64,000 nt of DNA from a virus (taxonomy: Duplodnaviria; Caudoviricetes). The translations under genes were made by a program, and so were the position numbers. The stretch covers positions 7,820 through 71,819 of the IMG/VR virus record IMGVR_UViG_3300044693_000257; one strand, 5' to 3'. Under the pieces are notes generated by a model. It was not told the DNA's origin. It made no database searches and worked only from the letters and a program-made list of their open reading frames with translations. This document shows positions 1-9,223 of this stretch, one piece after another (the stretch's first letter is position 1; each line of letters begins with the position of its first letter).

Positions 1-471
1 GACACTGAATACTGTGATGCCGTACTTCGGCGTCAACTCGTGCGCCATCTGTTTCGTCGCCATCAGGGCAGCGGCCTTGGACATGTTGTAGGCCAAGCTG
101 CTAGTCATCGGGATATGCGCCGCGTTAGATACGATGTTGATGACGGTGCCGAGAGACTTCTTGAGCGCGTGAAGGCATGCTTGCGTCATGTAGACAATGC
201 CGAAAGCGTTGACTTCCATGACGTGTTCGAGCGATTCGCAACTGACATCTTCGAACCACTCGTTGTGATTGATGCCGGCGCAGTTGACGAGCAAGTCAAG
301 ATGGTTCAGTTCACTCACCCAACCAGAAGGACGGATGATGTCATCGCCTTCACTTCGGTCATAAGAGAACACGGACCAATCCAAATTGACAAGAGCCTCC
401 TTGATGGCCAGGCCAAGTCCGCTGGACGACCCGGTGACGATGGCGGTCTTACACACTCTGCGTCTCCCCAT
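1..471 (-). CDS. Short-chain dehydrogenase/reductase (SDR), 3' end runs off the window
   Basis: Not in the ORF track. Manual translation of the minus strand gives KTAIVTGSSSGLG (TGxxxGxG), LLVNCAGI, VINIVSNAA and AYNMSKAAALMATKQMAHEL (YxxSK). Start is ATG 471 or GTG ~456. Confidence 0.88.
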   Translation of the reverse strand, partial: MGRRRVCKTAIVTGSSSGLGLAIKEALVNLDWSVFSYDRSEGDDIIRPSGWVSELNHLDLLVNCAGINHNEWFEDVSCESLEHVMEVNAFGIVYMTQACLHALKKSLGTVINIVSNAAHIPMTSSLAYNMSKAAALMATKQMAHELTPKYGITVFSV

Positions 472-1459
472 CCAAGCTGATGTTGTGATCATACACCAGG
501 TTCTCGACCATCGCTCCGTACACAATCATGTCGCGGATCGAGTCTTGATGGGTCAGGTCCGAGTTGACGAATCGCGTCAACTTCACAATCATCAACTCGA
601 ACAGATGAAAGATGTGAAAGTCGTCCGAGTTGTTCAGGTTCACGCCGTCCGGAAAAAGCGCCTCCATGACGCGACCGACCTTGACGGCATTGTCGCGGTA
701 CTTCGAGTTACGCCCGTCGAAAGTCTCTGCGGCTTCTTCGAGAATGCGCGCGACGGGATGGCGCGGAGGCGCTTCCGGCTTTCCTTCGGGCGAAATGATG
801 TGGAGAGTGCGCAGCGCCTCTTCGACGCTCTCCGCACCTGCCGGCTGATCCATCATAAAGTTGCCAGCAGGGGTATCCTGGGCGCGCGACTGCGCCGGGA
901 AGTATCCGTGTTCATTGACGATGGCGGCATTCAGCCCTGCCTCGCGGTACATGTCGATGATGTCAAGCCGATCATCATACGCCGCGATGACCTTCTTGCC
1001 AGTCTCACGCTCGAAAGCGCGCATGTGATTGACGAACTCTCGCTTGATGTCAACCGCGCTGCGACCGTCGTTGTCCTGGCGCATCAAGATCATGAAGTCG
1101 TGAACCGGCGCAATCTTGAAGTGATTGCTGATCCATTTCGCAGTCTTCTCGGCCACATTGAACGGGCGTGCCGTTGTGAACGTTATGAAGTCGCCATCCA
1201 CGATGTGCTTTTCGAGAAGCCGTGCGCCATGATCAATCAACGGATCGTCGCCGCAGCCGTCGTGGTAATGCTGATAGTCTTCGAACTTACTTGCACCTTC
1301 CGGAATGCGCCCACGACGCCAGATGTCGTTGCTGACGCAGCCGTCCAGATCGAACATAACAACATTGTCATTCAGAACTCGACGAGTCGGCTGTCCGTTC
1401 TGCGCTGTCTCTCTGATGACTCGCTCGCGATGTTCTGCGAATGCTTGCTGATAATCCAT
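449..1459 (-). CDS. HAD-family phosphatase fused to a C-terminal all-alpha DUF6378/dNTP-pyrophosphohydrolase-like domain
   Basis: VMFDLDG (HAD motif I), TFTTAR and AYDDR in the N-terminal half. C-terminal EAAETFDGRNSKYRDN...ELMIVKLTRF...DSIRDMIVYGAM. AAGGAG RBS before MDYQQ at 1459. Confidence 0.7.
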   Translation of the reverse strand: MDYQQAFAEHRERVIRETAQNGQPTRRVLNDNVVMFDLDGCVSNDIWRRGRIPEGASKFEDYQHYHDGCGDDPLIDHGARLLEKHIVDGDFITFTTARPFNVAEKTAKWISNHFKIAPVHDFMILMRQDNDGRSAVDIKREFVNHMRAFERETGKKVIAAYDDRLDIIDMYREAGLNAAIVNEHGYFPAQSRAQDTPAGNFMMDQPAGAESVEEALRTLHIISPEGKPEAPPRHPVARILEEAAETFDGRNSKYRDNAVKVGRVMEALFPDGVNLNNSDDFHIFHLFELMIVKLTRFVNSDLTHQDSIRDMIVYGAMVENLVYDHNISLDGETQSV

Positions 1460-1461
1460 AT

Positions 1462-2337
1462 CTACATGCTCCTTCCGTCTTTTGCTACAGGGTTGGCTTG
1501 GGCTATTGAATCTGCCGACCAAAAGGATAACCGCAGCGCCTCCTTCTCCAAGGACAGGTCCATCCATGGCCGATAGTGCGGGCATTGGTATGACTCGAAT
1601 TTGTCAGTCTGGCAATTCCATTCCCATTCGCCGTTCTCTTTGCTCAGTCCGAGCGACTTGTCCTTGGCCACACGCGGATCGCCTTTGTCGGCTTGTAGCA
1701 CGACAGAACCCCAACGCGGGAATGCGCACTGGCCCGTTGCGACACATGCCACCTGCAAAAGTGGATCGGTCCACGGATGGATCTTCAGCACTTCCTCTCG
1801 AATCAAGCGAAACACTTGCTGGTATTCGCCTTGCGTGCGTGCGCACAGACGCACCTTGGCCATGTCGCTAAGCGTCCGCAGGTTGAATTTCGCGTCGATA
1901 GCCGTTGGCATATTCGTCGGCAGGATCGAGCGCGCATCTTGGAGATTCGCGCCTGCGGCAATCAATTGCTTGTAGTTGGCGTCAATATCCGCCAGCGCGT
2001 CAGACCACAACCTGAACAGAGATTCATCAAACTTGAACTCATCCGGCGTTACGCTGTCGTAGACATTGACCTCCAGCGCGCGGCTCGTCTCCTGCTGATA
2101 CGCGCCTGTGCGCGTCCGAACCAGCTGGTGTGTGAAGTTCTTGGACACCCCTTCGATGTGGAAGATGTAGTCCACGAACTCGAATGGCGACTTGATCGTA
2201 TCAAGCATGTACTTGAAGTGCTCATAGCGTTCTGCCTCCGACATTTCAGCTGCAGTCTTGCCGCGCATGCGCGTGGTCTTCGTATCGACCAGCAATTCAA
2301 GCGCGTCCGGTGTGTACCGCTTCAATGTGACTTTCAC
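1462..2337 (-). CDS. thyX: Flavin-dependent thymidylate synthase (ThyX)-like protein, divergent motif
   Basis: SPFEF..YIFHIEGVS..FTHQLVRTRTGAYQQETSR, ARSILP, NLRTL..M..RLC.RTQ.E match the ThyX fold. GTG start with AAAGGA RBS. Confidence 0.85.
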   Translation of the reverse strand: MKVTLKRYTPDALELLVDTKTTRMRGKTAAEMSEAERYEHFKYMLDTIKSPFEFVDYIFHIEGVSKNFTHQLVRTRTGAYQQETSRALEVNVYDSVTPDEFKFDESLFRLWSDALADIDANYKQLIAAGANLQDARSILPTNMPTAIDAKFNLRTLSDMAKVRLCARTQGEYQQVFRLIREEVLKIHPWTDPLLQVACVATGQCAFPRWGSVVLQADKGDPRVAKDKSLGLSKENGEWEWNCQTDKFESYQCPHYRPWMDLSLEKEALRLSFWSADSIAQANPVAKDGRSM

Positions 2338-3243: not shown

Positions 3244-3429
3244 TCAACTCAATTCGCAATAATAGTAAAGCTCTCGCTCTTTCCGGTAGTCTGCGGACAA
3301 TTGCCAACGTTCATTGGATTGATCCAACGCACGCTCAGCAGCTTGCATTTCCTGCATGGAGTCGAAGTGCTCGATGACCGATCCAACCGGAATGCCGCAG
3401 TTCATGGTGGTGATGAGGAGGCGGAACAT
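3244..3429 (-). CDS. Small hypothetical protein
   Basis: 61-aa ORF translationally coupled to the upstream HAD gene. Confidence 0.55.
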   Translation of the reverse strand: MFRLLITTMNCGIPVGSVIEHFDSMQEMQAAERALDQSNERWQLSADYRKERELYYYCELS

Positions 3430-3932
3430 CAGAAGTCACCGCGCGCAACTTGGAAGCATGGTACACCCTCGGCGCGCCACATCTCAACAACCTTGTTGCG
3501 GTCATCGAATACGGCACAGACGCGGCTGCGCTCTTGCTTGGACATCAGGTGGAGCCACTTACGCTTCAGCTGCTCATCGGGTGTATAGTCGCCTTCCGTG
3601 CGCATTTTGACCATTTGCTCCAGCTTAATCAGCGGGATGCGAGTGTAAGTGTGCAGCCACATCAGCGTCTTCCCGCGAACGCTGTCCTCTCGGGCGCTCC
3701 AGATTCGAACGTCGCAACCCACGGCATACAGCTGCAGCATGGTGCCGATCACCGGCCAGTTGGGCTGGTCGCGGTCGCACGCCTCATAGAACGCTTTCCA
3801 GTTCGCCTCCCAGCCCCTGACGTTTCCGACCGGGCGCGTAACGAAGTGGAGGCGATGCTCGATCAAGGCCAGCGTGCCGTCCAGATCGAAAATGTACAGC
3901 GGGTATTGGCCGGTGCCTTCGGTTGTGATCAT
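3429..3932 (-). CDS. HAD phosphatase, polynucleotide kinase 3'-phosphatase-domain-like
   Basis: YIFDLDGTLA, IWSAR, KRKW, VFDDRNKVVEMWRAEGVPCFQVARGDF (T4 PNKP phosphatase-like). Confidence 0.85.
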   Translation of the reverse strand: MITTEGTGQYPLYIFDLDGTLALIEHRLHFVTRPVGNVRGWEANWKAFYEACDRDQPNWPVIGTMLQLYAVGCDVRIWSAREDSVRGKTLMWLHTYTRIPLIKLEQMVKMRTEGDYTPDEQLKRKWLHLMSKQERSRVCAVFDDRNKVVEMWRAEGVPCFQVARGDF

Positions 3933-3933
3933 G

Positions 3934-4707
3934 TCAGTTCCTCTGTTTGTTGATTGATCTACTTCGTGGTGCGTTAACCATATTCAGTCTCAGTGGACTT
4001 TGCACCTGTTCAATGCCGTTCTGCTCTGCTGCATCAAGATCAGATTCTGAATCCAACAGAACAAGCACAGAAGTCTTTAGAGCGCAAACGCCGACTTCAT
4101 CGGCAACTTTCTGTAATTCATGGTTTGAGTGCTTTCTAGCTTTTAGCATCCGAATGTGGGCAGAAAGTCGTTCATCGACATTAACTGACTGGCCAATGTA
4201 TGTTTCTCCGTTAGGGGCTTGAATGCTGTATATGCCCATTCTACGAGTGCAATTAATTTTGAATGAAATGCCGTCACATTCACCAGCATGCTTGAAGACT
4301 GCGCGCATTATGTTCAGTTCTCTTTGAACTGTTGATGCCTTGACTGATGACAATCTGTGGAATACGTATTCATCCAGCATGGCTTGATCGAATTGTCCTA
4401 TGGTTGCATCGGCGATACTTTCTCTTAACCACCTTTGCGCAGTCCAAAACTCAACCTCATGGCCTCGATTAAAAATTGACGCCTCATCAAGATACCTTTT
4501 GACTATCACTCTGAATGGCAAATTAAAATTTGGCGATGACATGCCATTCTGAACTTCATCAAATTCTCTTTCTTTCTTTAATCCCCATGCCTTTGCGTCT
4601 TCTATGGTATGGAATGTGGAGCTTTGGGTCTTTTGGCCCTTTCTCCTGACCTTCACCTGATACGTAACTTGTCCGTTCTTAGACACTCTAGTGGAAATGG
4701 TGCTCAT
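3934..4707 (-). CDS. Fusion of integrase-like N-terminal arm/core-binding domains and a GIY-YIG endonuclease
   Basis: N-terminus YQVKVRRKGQKTQSSTFHTIEDAKAW...KASTVQRELNIMRAVFKHA. C-terminus GIYSIQAPNGETYIGQSVNVDERLSAH. No tyrosine-recombinase catalytic domain. Visibly AT-richer than flanks. Confidence 0.75.
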   Translation of the reverse strand: MSTISTRVSKNGQVTYQVKVRRKGQKTQSSTFHTIEDAKAWGLKKEREFDEVQNGMSSPNFNLPFRVIVKRYLDEASIFNRGHEVEFWTAQRWLRESIADATIGQFDQAMLDEYVFHRLSSVKASTVQRELNIMRAVFKHAGECDGISFKINCTRRMGIYSIQAPNGETYIGQSVNVDERLSAHIRMLKARKHSNHELQKVADEVGVCALKTSVLVLLDSESDLDAAEQNGIEQVQSPLRLNMVNAPRSRSINKQRN

Positions 4708-4775
4708 ACTGGCGAAGAAGATTGTGGTAGAAATCATAATCCTACGGCTTCTTGACGTGGTCATTTGCTCACAAA

Positions 4776-5189
4776 TTATCTGTCTGCCGCGCACGCATAG
4801 GTGGCGACAATTTCAAAAAGCGAGCCTTTCTCAATGGGCTCACCGCGAGACTGCAGCGGACCGTCAGCGAGCACAACTCCTCCACCGAACACTGTCATGT
4901 GCATTTTGGAGAAGGCGCGCGGAGAAGAACATTTAATATTGACGACTGCTTCGATTGCGTCTGCGCCACCATGATCTTCCGGGTGGGCGAAATCGAATCT
5001 TACGCCAGCAATTGTGGCGTTGCCTTGATGGTGTACTCGCCGTTCCACGCTTACTCTCGTCTCGCCGTCAACAGAATGGCCGACATATCGCCAAGCCTTA
5101 CCGGCCTCTGCTGCCCACTCAGGGATCGGTTGAGCCATTGCATTGAGACTTGCGCCAATCAGCGCGGCAACCAAAAGTAAGCGTTTCAT
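4776..5189 (-). CDS. Exported/periplasmic hypothetical protein
   Basis: Classical signal peptide MKRLLLVAALIGASLNAMA/QP. Confidence 0.7.
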   Translation of the reverse strand: MKRLLLVAALIGASLNAMAQPIPEWAAEAGKAWRYVGHSVDGETRVSVERRVHHQGNATIAGVRFDFAHPEDHGGADAIEAVVNIKCSSPRAFSKMHMTVFGGGVVLADGPLQSRGEPIEKGSLFEIVATYACAADR

Positions 5190-6259: not shown

Positions 6260-7036
6260 TTATTCAGCTGCAGCGGGTTCGGGCTGGAGCGTCACGAAAT
6301 CCAGGTGGCCGCGCTCCTCCAGCTTGCTCAGGTACGAGCGGACCGATGCGCCATACAGAAACGGCTTGCATGACTTGGCCAAGTCTTCGATGGCGATGGT
6401 GTCACCGACGCTGTAGTTGTCCTTGATGTGCTGAAGGACTTTGCCACGCGTGCTGACGGCCTGCGGATTGCTGAAGCCGTTGCCTGTGTACGTGACGTGC
6501 GTGGCCTTCTCGCGGCGCTCGCCACTAATCTTCGTGGCCTCCTTGCGCTCTTCGATCAGGCGTGCGCGCTCGGCGACATTGGCCTTGCGGGCTTCCTTCA
6601 ACGCTTCCTTGGCAGCGGCCTTCTCCGCAGCTTTCTTCGCGGCTTCCTCGGCGCGCGCAGCCTTAGCGGCTTCCTTCGCAGCTTCGCGTTCGGCCTTCTT
6701 CGCTTCCGATTCCTGCTCGCGAGCAGCAGCGCGTTCGGCCTTCTTCGCTTCCTTCTCGGATTCGCGCTGTGCTGCCTTCTCTGCGCGCTCGGCTTCCTTC
6801 TGAGCGTTCTTGGCTTCGCGCTCGGCTTGCTTTTCGGCCTTCGAGGCTTCCTTTGCAGCAGCCTTCTCCGCGCGCTCCTTTTCCTTTGCCTCACGCTTGG
6901 CCACGCGCTCGGCTTCCTTTGCAGCCTTCTCCGCTTCTTTGGCTGCAGCAGCCTTTTCGGCCTCCGTCATTTCAGGCTTCGGATTGTGCTGCGTGTGTGC
7001 GTGGTGGCCATGCTCGTGGTGGTGCGCGTTTGACAT
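6260..7036 (-). CDS. Ala/Lys/Glu-rich putative DNA-binding protein with His-rich N-terminus and C-terminal winged-helix-like domain
   Basis: MSNAHHHEHGHHAH, ~150 aa of EKAAKEA-type repeats, then RGKVLQHIK..IAIEDL..SVRSYLSKLEERGHL. AGGAG RBS. Confidence 0.75.
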   Translation of the reverse strand: MSNAHHHEHGHHAHTQHNPKPEMTEAEKAAAAKEAEKAAKEAERVAKREAKEKERAEKAAAKEASKAEKQAEREAKNAQKEAERAEKAAQRESEKEAKKAERAAAREQESEAKKAEREAAKEAAKAARAEEAAKKAAEKAAAKEALKEARKANVAERARLIEERKEATKISGERREKATHVTYTGNGFSNPQAVSTRGKVLQHIKDNYSVGDTIAIEDLAKSCKPFLYGASVRSYLSKLEERGHLDFVTLQPEPAAAE

Positions 7037-7237
7037 ATTCTCTTCTCCTGAATGGTTGACGTTCAACAAAGGGTCAACGACAAAACGCCGTCGGTGCAAG
7101 AATTTTACCTGCGCCCGTCAGCGTTGTAGTGTTCAGTCGCGTTCCCTTTGCCGCGCCTCCTCTTTACTCCTCAGTGTGTTGAAAGGGTTCACAGTCCATT
7201 GGCCAAACAACAACATCCACATCGTCCAGAACATCAT

Positions 7238-8634: not shown

Positions 8635-8991
8635 TTACTCCGCGTCAGAGTTGATACGTTCGTTTTGATTGCTTTCCAGCATCGATTCGCGACGCACAGC
8701 CGCAGGATCGGTTATCAGGAAGGCGTGATGGGTGATGAGAGGGGCTTTTGCCGTCTTCGGCGTATAACTGCCGATGTACTCAAGGAACTGCTCGGGAACG
8801 TCAATGGTGTCGTAATCGGCCTTGGCGACGATGATCTTGTAAGCCTGCTCAGGCGGCGCGCAGAAGTCTTCGAGGACCGAGACGCACAGGCCGCGATGTT
8901 GGTCGAAATCTAGTCCGAGCAGCTTTGCGTTGCGCGGAAGGTATAGGGTATTCAGGAAACCAGACAGCGGCTTGTTACGGATGATAAGCAC
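8635..8991 (-). CDS. Hypothetical protein
   Basis: AAAGGAG RBS before GTG at 8991 (MLIIRNKPLSG). Confidence 0.6.
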   Translation of the reverse strand: MLIIRNKPLSGFLNTLYLPRNAKLLGLDFDQHRGLCVSVLEDFCAPPEQAYKIIVAKADYDTIDVPEQFLEYIGSYTPKTAKAPLITHHAFLITDPAAVRRESMLESNQNERINSDAE

Positions 8992-9223
8992 AATTCTTCT
9001 CCTTTCTATGGCACACATCGGCGATTTGTCCGAGTCGTTCATCACGAGCGACGGACTGAGTATAAGCGCACTCCAATGAGCGCGCTGCACACTGAGGATC
9101 GCGGATGCTTACGATTCGTAAGTTGAAATAGTTGACTCAACGACAGAACTTAAGGCGATACTTACCTGGTTCCTCGGACCTGCAGTTGAGGATCGGTAAA
9201 TACTACCAAGAAAGGAAGAGCAA

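What the first reader, a model, noticed from the sequence alone, without database searches (positions are those of the whole stretch)
3934..4707. Integrase arm/core-binding domains fused to a GIY-YIG nuclease: possible new homing-endonuclease architecture
Seen: residues 1-~145 look like the N-terminal arm-binding and SAM-like core-binding domains of tyrosine integrases (YQVKVRRKG..QSSTFHT..DAKAW; L.SVKASTVQRELNIMRAVFKHA). Where the catalytic domain should be there is a clear GIY-YIG module (GIYSIQAPNGETYIGQS...RL..H...H.N..LQ). The gene is visibly AT-richer than its ~56% GC flanks and interrupts the nucleotide-metabolism operon. Established: free-standing phage GIY-YIG homing endonucleases normally carry the nuclease N-terminally, followed by NUMOD/HTH/Zn binding modules. 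Inference: a recent domain-shuffled selfish nuclease or a competitor-targeting nuclease that uses integrase DNA-recognition domains, perhaps against att-like sites of prophages.
Basis: partly seen in the sequence, partly recalled or inferred. Interest (0 to 1): 0.78.

Follow-up and report, generated by a model that had tools for sequence, protein, structure and literature searches.

The report
Integrase-headed GIY-YIG homing nuclease gene
A lytic-type phage carries a recently inserted selfish-looking gene whose protein joins the DNA-binding front half of a phage integrase to an intact I-TevI-type DNA-cutting domain. This nuclease design is very rare and I found no description of it, but it fits the known pattern of domain-shuffled homing endonucleases.

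Summary
Window 3934-4707 (-) encodes a 257-aa protein. Residues 1-~150 are homologous to the N-terminal arm-type and core-binding (CB) domains of tyrosine integrases of Burkholderiales phages and prophages. The CB fold matches lambda Int CB at Z 11.9. Residues 157-243 form an I-TevI-class GIY-YIG domain (rmsd 1.3-1.8 Å) with every catalytic residue intact. The nuclease replaces the integrase catalytic domain exactly at the interdomain linker.

The gene is 43% GC in a 54% GC genome. It lies in an ~832-bp insertion that an 88%-identical relative lacks. The insertion has no repeats or intron, and the complete genome has no integrase.

Among 1.84 billion representative proteins, one other shares the architecture (38% identity). 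It sits in related ~71-kb phages at a different site. Both copies landed at the start codon of a conserved downstream gene and supply that gene with a new start.

Best reading: a free-standing homing-endonuclease gene with a new targeting module and reversed domain order. Cleavage, target and homing are untested. An Odn-like anti-competitor role is not excluded.

Earlier notes of this scan report comparable recombinase-head/nuclease fusions on other, unrelated DNA; I did not check them. The fusion is old; the insertion is recent. New variant of a known kind.

The parts
3934..4707 (-). Nuclease gene: 257 codons plus a TGA stop at 3934-3936
   Evidence: ORF and translation. The start at 4707 agrees with the N-termini of the homologue and of integrases.
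4537..4707 (-). Residues 1-57: integrase N-terminal 'arm-type' domain, a three-stranded sheet plus a helix
   Evidence: Aligns from residue 1 with the N-termini of true tyrosine integrases. The model has strands at 2-8, 14-20 and 28-32 and a helix at 35-53, with pLDDT above 90. The fold match to the AP2/GCC-box domain is only weak (Z 5.3).
4258..4530 (-). Residues 60-150: tyrosine-recombinase core-binding (SAM-like) helical domain
   Evidence: VIA-align matches: 3lys Z 12.0; lambda Int CB 2oxo Z 11.9, rmsd 2.0 Å over 89 residues; Tn1549 Int Z 11.7. Weak Pfam Int_N hit at residues 94-143. phrog_1 matches residues 5-147.
4240..4272 (-). Residues 146-156: short linker and fusion point, at the position of the CB-to-catalytic-domain linker of integrases
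   Evidence: Homology to integrase P0004 ends at query residue 152, and that integrase's Phage_integrase domain starts at residue 165. The first GIY-YIG strand begins at residue 157.
3979..4239 (-). Residues 157-243: I-TevI-class GIY-YIG nuclease domain with G158, Y160, Y170, G172, R180, H184, H193, E228 and N242
   Evidence: Pfam PF01541 above its cut-off. These columns are invariant, or ≥90% conserved for N242, in an alignment with 28 GIY-YIG proteins. The domain model has pLDDT 90 and matches 1mk0/1ln0 at rmsd 1.3-1.8 Å.
3933..4776 (-). Inserted block: 844 nt here against 12 nt in the HEG-less relative L003 (3753-3764), 43% GC
   Evidence: blastn break points and direct reading of both junctions. 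GC values. No flanking direct or inverted repeats and no intron RNA family.
4708..4764 (-). Left junction: the ancestral start codon of the downstream gene (ATG 4762-4764) followed by a 19-codon leader in frame with the nuclease ORF
   Evidence: 'caaATGa' occurs at the empty site of L003 and at the left end here. Whether translation starts here or at 4707 is unknown.
3930..3943 (-). Right junction: the 3' end of the nuclease gene supplies a GAGGA ribosome-binding site (3939-3943) and is followed by the ATG (3930-3932) of the phosphatase gene
   Evidence: Read directly from the sequence. In L007/L008 the homologue's stop overlaps the helicase start as ATGA.
3429..3932 (-). Downstream conserved gene: PNKP-type HAD phosphatase
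   Evidence: Pfam HAD_PNKP at E 5e-26. 93% identical to the L003 gene, where it directly follows the 137-aa gene.
4776..5189 (-). Upstream gene: 137-aa ORF with a signal-peptide-like N-terminus
   Evidence: ORF. 90% identical in L003. No family hit.

Best explanation
This is a free-standing homing-endonuclease gene, or a very recently mobile selfish nuclease gene, in a virulent-type ~72-kb myophage.

The protein keeps the bipartite DNA-binding head of a tyrosine integrase: an arm-type beta-sheet domain and a core-binding helical bundle. The recombinase catalytic domain has been replaced, exactly at the interdomain linker, by an I-TevI-class GIY-YIG nuclease.

Inferred mechanism. The integrase-derived head recognises a specific sequence in related phage genomes that lack the gene, probably at or near the junction of the 137-aa gene and the phosphatase gene. 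The nuclease is tethered by only about 10 residues. It would sit roughly where an integrase catalytic domain clamps the DNA and would nick or cut there. During co-infection the break would be repaired from the gene-bearing genome, which copies the gene into the intergenic site.

The insertion takes over the start codon region of the downstream gene and gives that gene a new ribosome-binding site and start, so host-gene expression is preserved.

Shown here: the architecture, the intact catalytic residues, the insertion polymorphism, and a second family member at another site. Inferred: DNA cleavage, the target, and homing.
For: Architecture and intact active site:
- The domain assignments rest.

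Insertion polymorphism:
- The 88%-identical relative L003 has 12 nt where this genome has 844 nt. The flanks align up to the stop of the 137-aa gene and from the ATG of the phosphatase gene.
- GC is 43% against 54% for the window, and is uniform over both halves of the gene.
- A complete 71.3-kb relative has no homologue.

Second family member:
- P0003/P0152 is 38% identical over both domains.
- It lies in related ~71-kb phages between the RepB-type primase and Dda-like helicase genes, a different site.
- In relative L006 that site is empty. Homology runs up to the helicase start codon, which the homologue now uses as its own.

Not another kind of mobile element:
- No terminal repeats.
- No intron RNA family.
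- No integrase catalytic domain in the genome.
- Only one GIY-YIG gene in the genome.

Relatives and precedent:
- The nearest GIY-YIG relatives include proteins with the Seg/I-TevI layout, nuclease first and long C-terminal tails; others are short or multi-nuclease. TIGR01453 and PADLOC 'homing endonuclease' models hit.
- The literature describes HEGs as modular, with a DNA-binding end and a nuclease end, frequent domain shuffling, and insertion beside essential genes (PMC10448857).
Against: - No cleavage, target site or homing event has been observed.
- Presence/absence and a change of site show mobility but not its mechanism.
- The family is extremely rare (two proteins), which is odd for a successful homing element.
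- No promoter of its own was found.
- The N-terminal beta-sheet domain has only weak fold matches.
- The relative orientation of head and nuclease is unmodelled, because the nuclease had low pLDDT in the full-length model.
- Integrase CB domains bind DNA weakly on their own (established knowledge for lambda Int), so specificity may need more than this head.
Confidence: 0.6

Rival explanations
1. An Odn-like weapon. The phage uses an integrase-derived DNA-binding head to direct a nuclease at the attachment or core-type sites, or arm sites, of a competing temperate phage, prophage or satellite whose integrase belongs to the same family. The nuclease would destroy or block that competitor rather than home.
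For: The head is homologous to integrases of temperate Ralstonia and Burkholderia podophages and of Burkholderiaceae genomes, at 31-36% identity over about 150 residues. The nearest annotated phage relative of the neighbouring phrog_4828 gene is a Burkholderia phage, so competitor and host clade could coincide.

The precedent is ICP1 Odn. Its N-terminal domain is only 42% identical to the satellite RepA it mimics, and it is joined to a C-terminal GIY-YIG-superfamily domain (PMC8263062).

Earlier notes of this scan describe recombinase-head/nuclease fusions beside att sites on other DNA. These are unchecked leads.
Against: - No specific competitor or att site was identified.
- The gene is absent from most relatives, and its homologue lies at a different intergenic site. 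That fits a selfish element better than a conserved defence locus.
- This genome has no integrase or att site nearby.
- The two readings are not mutually exclusive.
Confidence: 0.2
2. A domesticated DNA-binding protein or nickase with a role in the phage's own life cycle, for example transcriptional regulation (as I-TevI autorepression or recombinase-like repressors such as MrpR), or nicking for replication or recombination. On this reading it is not a mobile nuclease.
For: It sits in the replication and nucleotide-metabolism gene block, apparently co-transcribed, with no promoter of its own. Recombinase-like proteins reused as regulators appear among the structural matches (MrpR 8a0a, SroF 9rd5). 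GIY-YIG domains have a single active site.
Against: It is missing from close and complete relatives. Its base composition is foreign. It lies at different loci in different phages. The full catalytic residue set is retained in both homologues.
Confidence: 0.12
3. An artefact: an assembly chimera, or a decaying pseudogene remnant of an integrase joined by chance to a nuclease fragment.
For: The exact protein is known from a single metagenomic contig. Read support could not be examined.
Against: - An independent homologue with the same two domains in the same order occurs on about 10 contigs.
- GC is uniform across the junction.
- The frame is uninterrupted, both domains fold confidently and the catalytic residues are intact.
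- The fusion point lies exactly at a natural interdomain linker.
Confidence: 0.03

Closest known systems
I-TevI and the free-standing Seg-type GIY-YIG homing endonucleases of T4-like phages
   Same: Same catalytic domain class: best PDB match by sequence and by fold, TIGR01453 hit, and all catalytic residues present. Same lifestyle signature: an optional gene wedged between conserved phage genes.
   Different: The domain order is reversed, with the nuclease C-terminal. There is no NUMOD, zinc-finger or HTH DNA-binding tail and no long flexible linker. The targeting module is an integrase arm-plus-CB head joined by about 10 residues. No intron is associated.
Odn (Gp88) of Vibrio phage ICP1, and T5orf172 homing endonucleases (PMC8263062, PMC10448857)
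   Same: An N-terminal DNA-binding domain borrowed from a protein of another mobile element, joined to a C-terminal GIY-YIG-superfamily nuclease. This shows that phage nucleases acquire new specificity by domain shuffling.
   Different: The nuclease here is canonical PF01541, not T5orf172. No T5orf172 hit appeared even at E ≤ 10. The borrowed head comes from a tyrosine integrase, not a RepA initiator or a zinc-finger module. No target element is known.
HNH-AP2 (IPA-HNH) homing endonucleases
   Same: Homing endonucleases with AP2 DNA-binding domains (PMC10448857). From my own knowledge, not checked here, AP2 is considered to share the fold of integrase arm-binding domains. The PHROG HNH family phrog_99 weakly matches residues 7-110.
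   Different: A different nuclease superfamily (HNH), with the nuclease N-terminal and no core-binding domain. The match is weak (E 0.0025).
Tyrosine integrases of Burkholderiales podophages and prophages (for example Ralstonia phage Anchaing, Burkholderia phage Bp-AMP1)
   Same: The N-terminal ~150 residues are homologous from the first residue at 30-36% identity, with the same arm-type and CB domains.
   Different: The Phage_integrase catalytic domain is absent, so the protein cannot recombine DNA. A GIY-YIG nuclease takes its place.

Membership tests
GIY-YIG nuclease superfamily, I-TevI/Seg class | Profile match to the GIY-YIG domain above the curated threshold | tested here: met
   PF01541 at 29 bits against a cut-off of 22.6, residues 157-237. 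The TIGR01453 N-terminal region matches at E 2e-7, but below that whole-protein cut-off.
GIY-YIG nuclease superfamily, I-TevI/Seg class | Catalytic residues: the two Tyr of GIY and YIG, plus Arg, His, Glu and Asn | tested here: met
   Y160, Y170, R180, H184, H193 and E228 are invariant, and N242 is ≥90% conserved, across 29 aligned sequences. They are also present in the homologue.
GIY-YIG nuclease superfamily, I-TevI/Seg class | The three-stranded sheet plus helices fold of the I-TevI catalytic domain | tested here: met
   The domain model has pLDDT 90. Foldseek matches 1mk0/1ln0 at E 3e-5 to 2e-4, TM 0.68-0.82, rmsd 1.3-1.8 Å.
GIY-YIG nuclease superfamily, I-TevI/Seg class | Canonical homing-endonuclease layout: N-terminal nuclease, linker, C-terminal NUMOD/Zn/HTH DNA-binding domain | tested here: not met
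   The nuclease is C-terminal and ends the protein. No other domain follows it.
Free-standing homing endonuclease gene | Presence/absence polymorphism at a precise site between conserved genes in related genomes | tested here: met
   L003 is an empty site, 12 nt against 844 nt. L006 is an empty site for the homologue. A complete relative lacks the gene.
Free-standing homing endonuclease gene | Not inside an intron or intein, and no transposon ends | tested here: met
   No Rfam family in the window. No flanking repeats. The insertion is filled by the ORF.
Free-standing homing endonuclease gene | Cleaves the gene-less allele and is over-inherited in mixed infection | not testable with these tools
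   This needs in vitro cleavage assays and phage crosses.
Tyrosine recombinase / phage integrase | N-terminal arm-type and core-binding domains | tested here: met
   Sequence homology from residue 1 to about 150. The CB fold matches at Z about 12. The fold match for the arm-type domain alone is weak (Z 5.3 to AP2).
Tyrosine recombinase / phage integrase | Catalytic domain carrying the active-site residues of tyrosine recombinases (Pfam PF00589) | tested here: not met
   PF00589 does not hit the protein even at E ≤ 10, and does not hit anywhere in the genome. Homology to integrases stops at residue ~152.
Odn-like chimeric anti-element nuclease | T5orf172 nuclease domain | tested here: not met
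   Only PF01541 was reported by Pfam at E ≤ 10.
Odn-like chimeric anti-element nuclease | The DNA-binding domain mimics a protein of an identified hostile element and directs cutting of that element | not tested
   The head resembles Burkholderiales integrases at 31-36% identity, but no target element or host is known.

The most novel reading that the evidence does not exclude
The protein represents an undescribed class of 'recombinase-guided' nucleases. It keeps the integrase's two-site (arm plus core) recognition and C-clamp geometry, and cuts the attachment sites of rival temperate phages or satellites that use the same integrase family. It would be a site-specific anti-lysogen or anti-satellite weapon of a virulent phage, and a naturally compact, reprogrammable nuclease scaffold.
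Probability: 0.12. Interest if true: 0.8.

Novelty: new variant of a known kind. Interest (0 to 1): 0.6.

Why it matters
It shows that the DNA-recognition head of a site-specific recombinase can be re-used to aim a simple one-active-site nuclease, with the swap made exactly at the recombinase's interdomain linker.

This adds a targeting module to the repertoire of GIY-YIG homing endonucleases. I did not find it in the 2006 superfamily survey (PMC1564403) or in full-text searches.

It also links two major classes of mobile-DNA enzymes. If the protein is specific, it would be a small (257 aa) natural nuclease with a well-understood DNA-binding scaffold.

The two independent insertions at start codons, each re-supplying a translation start to the downstream gene, illustrate how such genes invade operons without harm. 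The practical weight is limited by extreme rarity (two proteins known) and by the absence of any functional data.

Tried and rejected
Searches for relatives that found little:
- Megablast of the locus against 50,697 phage records gave no match.
- The word-indexed protein search found only the protein itself.
- A viral-contig scan for relatives of the protein found none.
- The ESM Atlas returned only integrase N-terminal fragments, at a score of 0.81.

Alignment and fold attempts that fell short:
- A mixed alignment of N-half and C-half hits misaligned the GIY-YIG proteins and was discarded.
- Foldseek with the full-length model gave no match at E ≤ 0.001, although I-TevI, lambda Int and Tn1549 Int were among the weak hits. 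VIA-align and the separate domain model resolved this.
- The full-length model left the nuclease domain, and therefore the inter-domain geometry, at low confidence.

Mobile-element alternatives rejected:
- Group I intron or other RNA family: none found.
- Transposon-like terminal or target-site repeats: none found.
- A promoter of its own on the coding strand upstream: none found.
- The phage's own integrase or a second GIY-YIG gene: none found.

Tools that could not be used as planned:
- Genome-contig scans with broad alignments failed for lack of conserved stretches. A narrower alignment worked but is biased by its two search patterns.

Literature searches that returned nothing:
- Full-text searches for GIY-YIG together with arm-binding, core-binding domain, or integrase N-terminal gave no paper.

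No complex prediction was run, because no protein-protein binding is claimed.

Full report
**What is there**

The minus strand of window 3934-4707 holds an uninterrupted ORF. The longest frame reaches a GTG at 4794, and an automatic gene call starts at M20 (267 aa). The ATG at 4707 gives an N-terminus, MSTISTRVSKNGQVTYQVKVRRKG. This lines up residue for residue with the only full-length homologue (MGTISRRV..., ATG at L007:7962 behind a GGAAG ribosome-binding site) and with true integrases. I therefore take 257 aa as the protein (P0001).

**N-terminal half: an integrase head**

- PHROG phrog_1 'integrase' matches residues 5-147 at E 4.7e-10.
- tblastn against phage records finds the integrases of Ralstonia and Burkholderia podophages (Anchaing, RS-PII-1, Bp-AMP1 and others) at 30-34% identity, starting at residue 1.
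- A HMMER scan of 1.84 billion representative proteins gives 942 hits at E ≤ 0.001. Most of the 150 listed cover residues 1-~150.
- The best of these, P0004, is 36% identical over residues 1-152. Its Pfam Phage_integrase catalytic domain begins at residue 165. P0005 and P0009 are also true integrases.
- An AlphaFold model built with these N-terminal homologues has pLDDT around 90 for residues 1-150. It shows a three-stranded sheet plus a helix (residues 2-53), then a helical bundle.
- All-against-PDB structural alignment puts tyrosine-recombinase core-binding domains in all of the top 24 places: 3lys Z 12.0; lambda Int CB 2oxo Z 11.9 with rmsd 2.0 Å over 89 residues; Tn1549 Int Z 11.7; also XerA, XerD, XerH and IntI.
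- The small N-terminal sheet-helix domain gives only weak matches, among them the AP2/GCC-box domain (Z 5.3). Its identity as an arm-type domain therefore rests on sequence homology to integrase N-termini rather than on fold.

**C-terminal half: an intact I-TevI-class nuclease**

- Pfam GIY-YIG matches residues 157-237 above its gathering score.
- TIGR01453 (group I intron endonuclease) and PADLOC 'homing endonuclease' models also hit.
- The only PDB sequence matches are the I-TevI catalytic domain entries.
- In an alignment with 28 GIY-YIG proteins, G158, Y160, Y170, G172, R180, H184, H193, G206 and E228 are invariant and N242 is nearly so. That is the complete catalytic set.
- The domain modelled alone has pLDDT 90 and superposes on I-TevI (1mk0/1ln0) at rmsd 1.3-1.8 Å and TM 0.68-0.82.
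- The nearest sequence relatives include proteins with the nuclease at the N-terminus followed by long tails; others are short or carry two or three nuclease domains. The reversed order here is real.

**The fusion point**

Homology to integrases stops at about residue 152, and the first nuclease strand starts at residue 157. The GIY-YIG domain therefore replaces the recombinase catalytic domain at the natural interdomain linker. It is established that the CB and catalytic domains of tyrosine recombinases clamp the core site from opposite faces. The short tether suggests that the nuclease is presented to the DNA bound by the CB domain. This is inference, because the full-length model did not resolve the relative orientation.

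**The fusion is genuine and old**

One other protein among the 1.84 billion representatives matches over both domains: P0003 (P0152 with its proper start, 259 aa). It is 38% identical over 243 residues, with a library E-value of 1e-34. It is found on about 10 contigs from several metagenomes.

GC is the same in both halves of the window's gene, at 42.7% and 43.8%. An assembly chimera is therefore very unlikely, although read support could not be examined. The fusion predates the divergence of the two homologues, so 'recent domain shuffling' is not correct.

**It is an insertion**

The genome is a complete 71.8-kb viral contig with direct terminal repeats. It is distantly related to PB1-like and Wifcevirus-like phages and to Burkholderia, Luteibacter and Xanthomonas phages, at about 50% protein identity for the neighbouring phrog_4828 gene.

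A closer metagenomic relative, L003, shares 88% protein identity for that gene. In L003 the 137-aa gene is followed after 12 nt by the PNKP-type phosphatase gene. Here 844 nt lie between them.

Reading the junctions:
- The empty site reads TAG-gacttgcacaa-ATG-atc...
- The filled site reads TAA-tttgtgagcaa-ATG-acc... on the left, and ...cagaggaacTGAcATGatc... on the right.
- The insertion therefore lies at the start codon of the phosphatase gene. The old ATG (4762-4764) is now in frame with the nuclease ORF.
- The 3' end of the nuclease gene provides a GAGGA ribosome-binding site 6 nt before the phosphatase ATG.

The gene is 43% GC in a 54% GC genome. There are no flanking repeats and no intron or other RNA family. 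I found no promoter of its own, no other GIY-YIG gene and no integrase catalytic domain in the genome.

**The homologue sits elsewhere and shows the same pattern**

In L007 and L008, from ~71-kb relatives with the same gene order, the homologue lies between the divergent RepB-type primase gene and the Dda-like helicase gene. In L006, from a complete 71.3-kb relative with no homologue, the helicase start codon follows a 287-nt intergenic region.

The L006 sequence just upstream of the helicase ATG, and the ATG itself, align with the sequence upstream of and including the homologue's ATG in L007. The homologue's stop codon overlaps the helicase start as ATGA.

So two independent insertions of this gene family each captured the start of a conserved downstream gene and re-supplied one. 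The homologue is closer in GC to its genome (52% against 56%), which suggests longer residence.

**Interpretation**

The following features are the signature of free-standing homing-endonuclease genes:
- optional presence at precise intergenic sites;
- different sites in related genomes;
- foreign base composition;
- an intact nuclease of the homing class;
- no transposon or intron features.

Barth et al. describe exactly such modular, domain-shuffled HEGs next to essential phage genes (PMC10448857). I give this reading a confidence of 0.6. Cleavage, target and homing are not shown.

The main rival, at 0.2, is an Odn-like weapon against an integrative competitor. Odn's head is only 42% identical to the satellite protein it mimics (PMC8263062). 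The 31-36% identity of this head to Burkholderiales integrases therefore does not exclude such mimicry, but no target is known. The two readings can coexist.

**Novelty**

I found no description of an integrase arm/CB head joined to a GIY-YIG nuclease. The 2006 superfamily survey does not mention one (PMC1564403), and full-text searches found none.

Three earlier notes of this scan (e1-1088585, e1-3482677, e1-5847172) report recombinase-head fusions to T5orf172 or GIY-YIG domains on other DNA, mostly beside att or recombination sites. They share no detectable sequence words with this protein, and I did not check them. If they hold, the theme recurs convergently. This case would then be the one set in a virulent-type genome without an integrase.

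Known principles cover it: modular HEGs, HNH-AP2 endonucleases, and Odn. I therefore class it as a new variant of a known kind.

Noticed in passing
window 8635-9090 (-): A 151-aa ORF with no family hit fills the primase-helicase intergenic site. The nuclease homologue occupies the same site in L007/L008, and L006 has it empty. It is a second hot spot for optional genes.
   Followed up: partly
window 4776-5189 (-); L004:6982-7574; L007:12490-12714: The slot between the phrog_4828 gene and the phosphatase gene is variable. Here and in L003 it holds a 137-aa protein with a signal-peptide-like N-terminus. L007 has a 74-aa gene there, and L004 has unrelated 71-aa and 126-aa ORFs.
   Followed up: partly
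window 449-1585 (-) and 3429-3932 (-): There are two paralogous PNKP-type HAD phosphatase genes. The larger one carries a C-terminal extension (phrog_4889) and overlaps the ThyX ORF (1462-2337) by 124 nt as listed.
   Followed up: no
window 6260-7099 (-): A 279-aa protein (phrog_4765) with a long Lys/Ala/Glu-rich low-complexity stretch. It causes a strong AT-skew anomaly at about 6450-7050.
   Followed up: no
P0013, P0017, P0057, P0078: Among the nuclease-domain hits are proteins with two or three tandem GIY-YIG domains in one chain. This is unusual for a domain thought to act as a monomer.
   Followed up: no
P0001 residues 18-157 and 7-110: PHROG families phrog_22184 (unknown function, 254-position profile, E 6e-6) and phrog_99 (HNH endonuclease, E 0.0025) match the integrase-like head. 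Other phage proteins, perhaps other nucleases, may carry the same head.
   Followed up: no
L013-L020: The closest genomic integrase N-termini found are all in Burkholderiaceae (Pandoraea, Burkholderia, Trinickia, Ralstonia, Paraburkholderia). This is a hint, biased by the search patterns, to the host clade of the donor integrase family and perhaps of the phage.
   Followed up: partly
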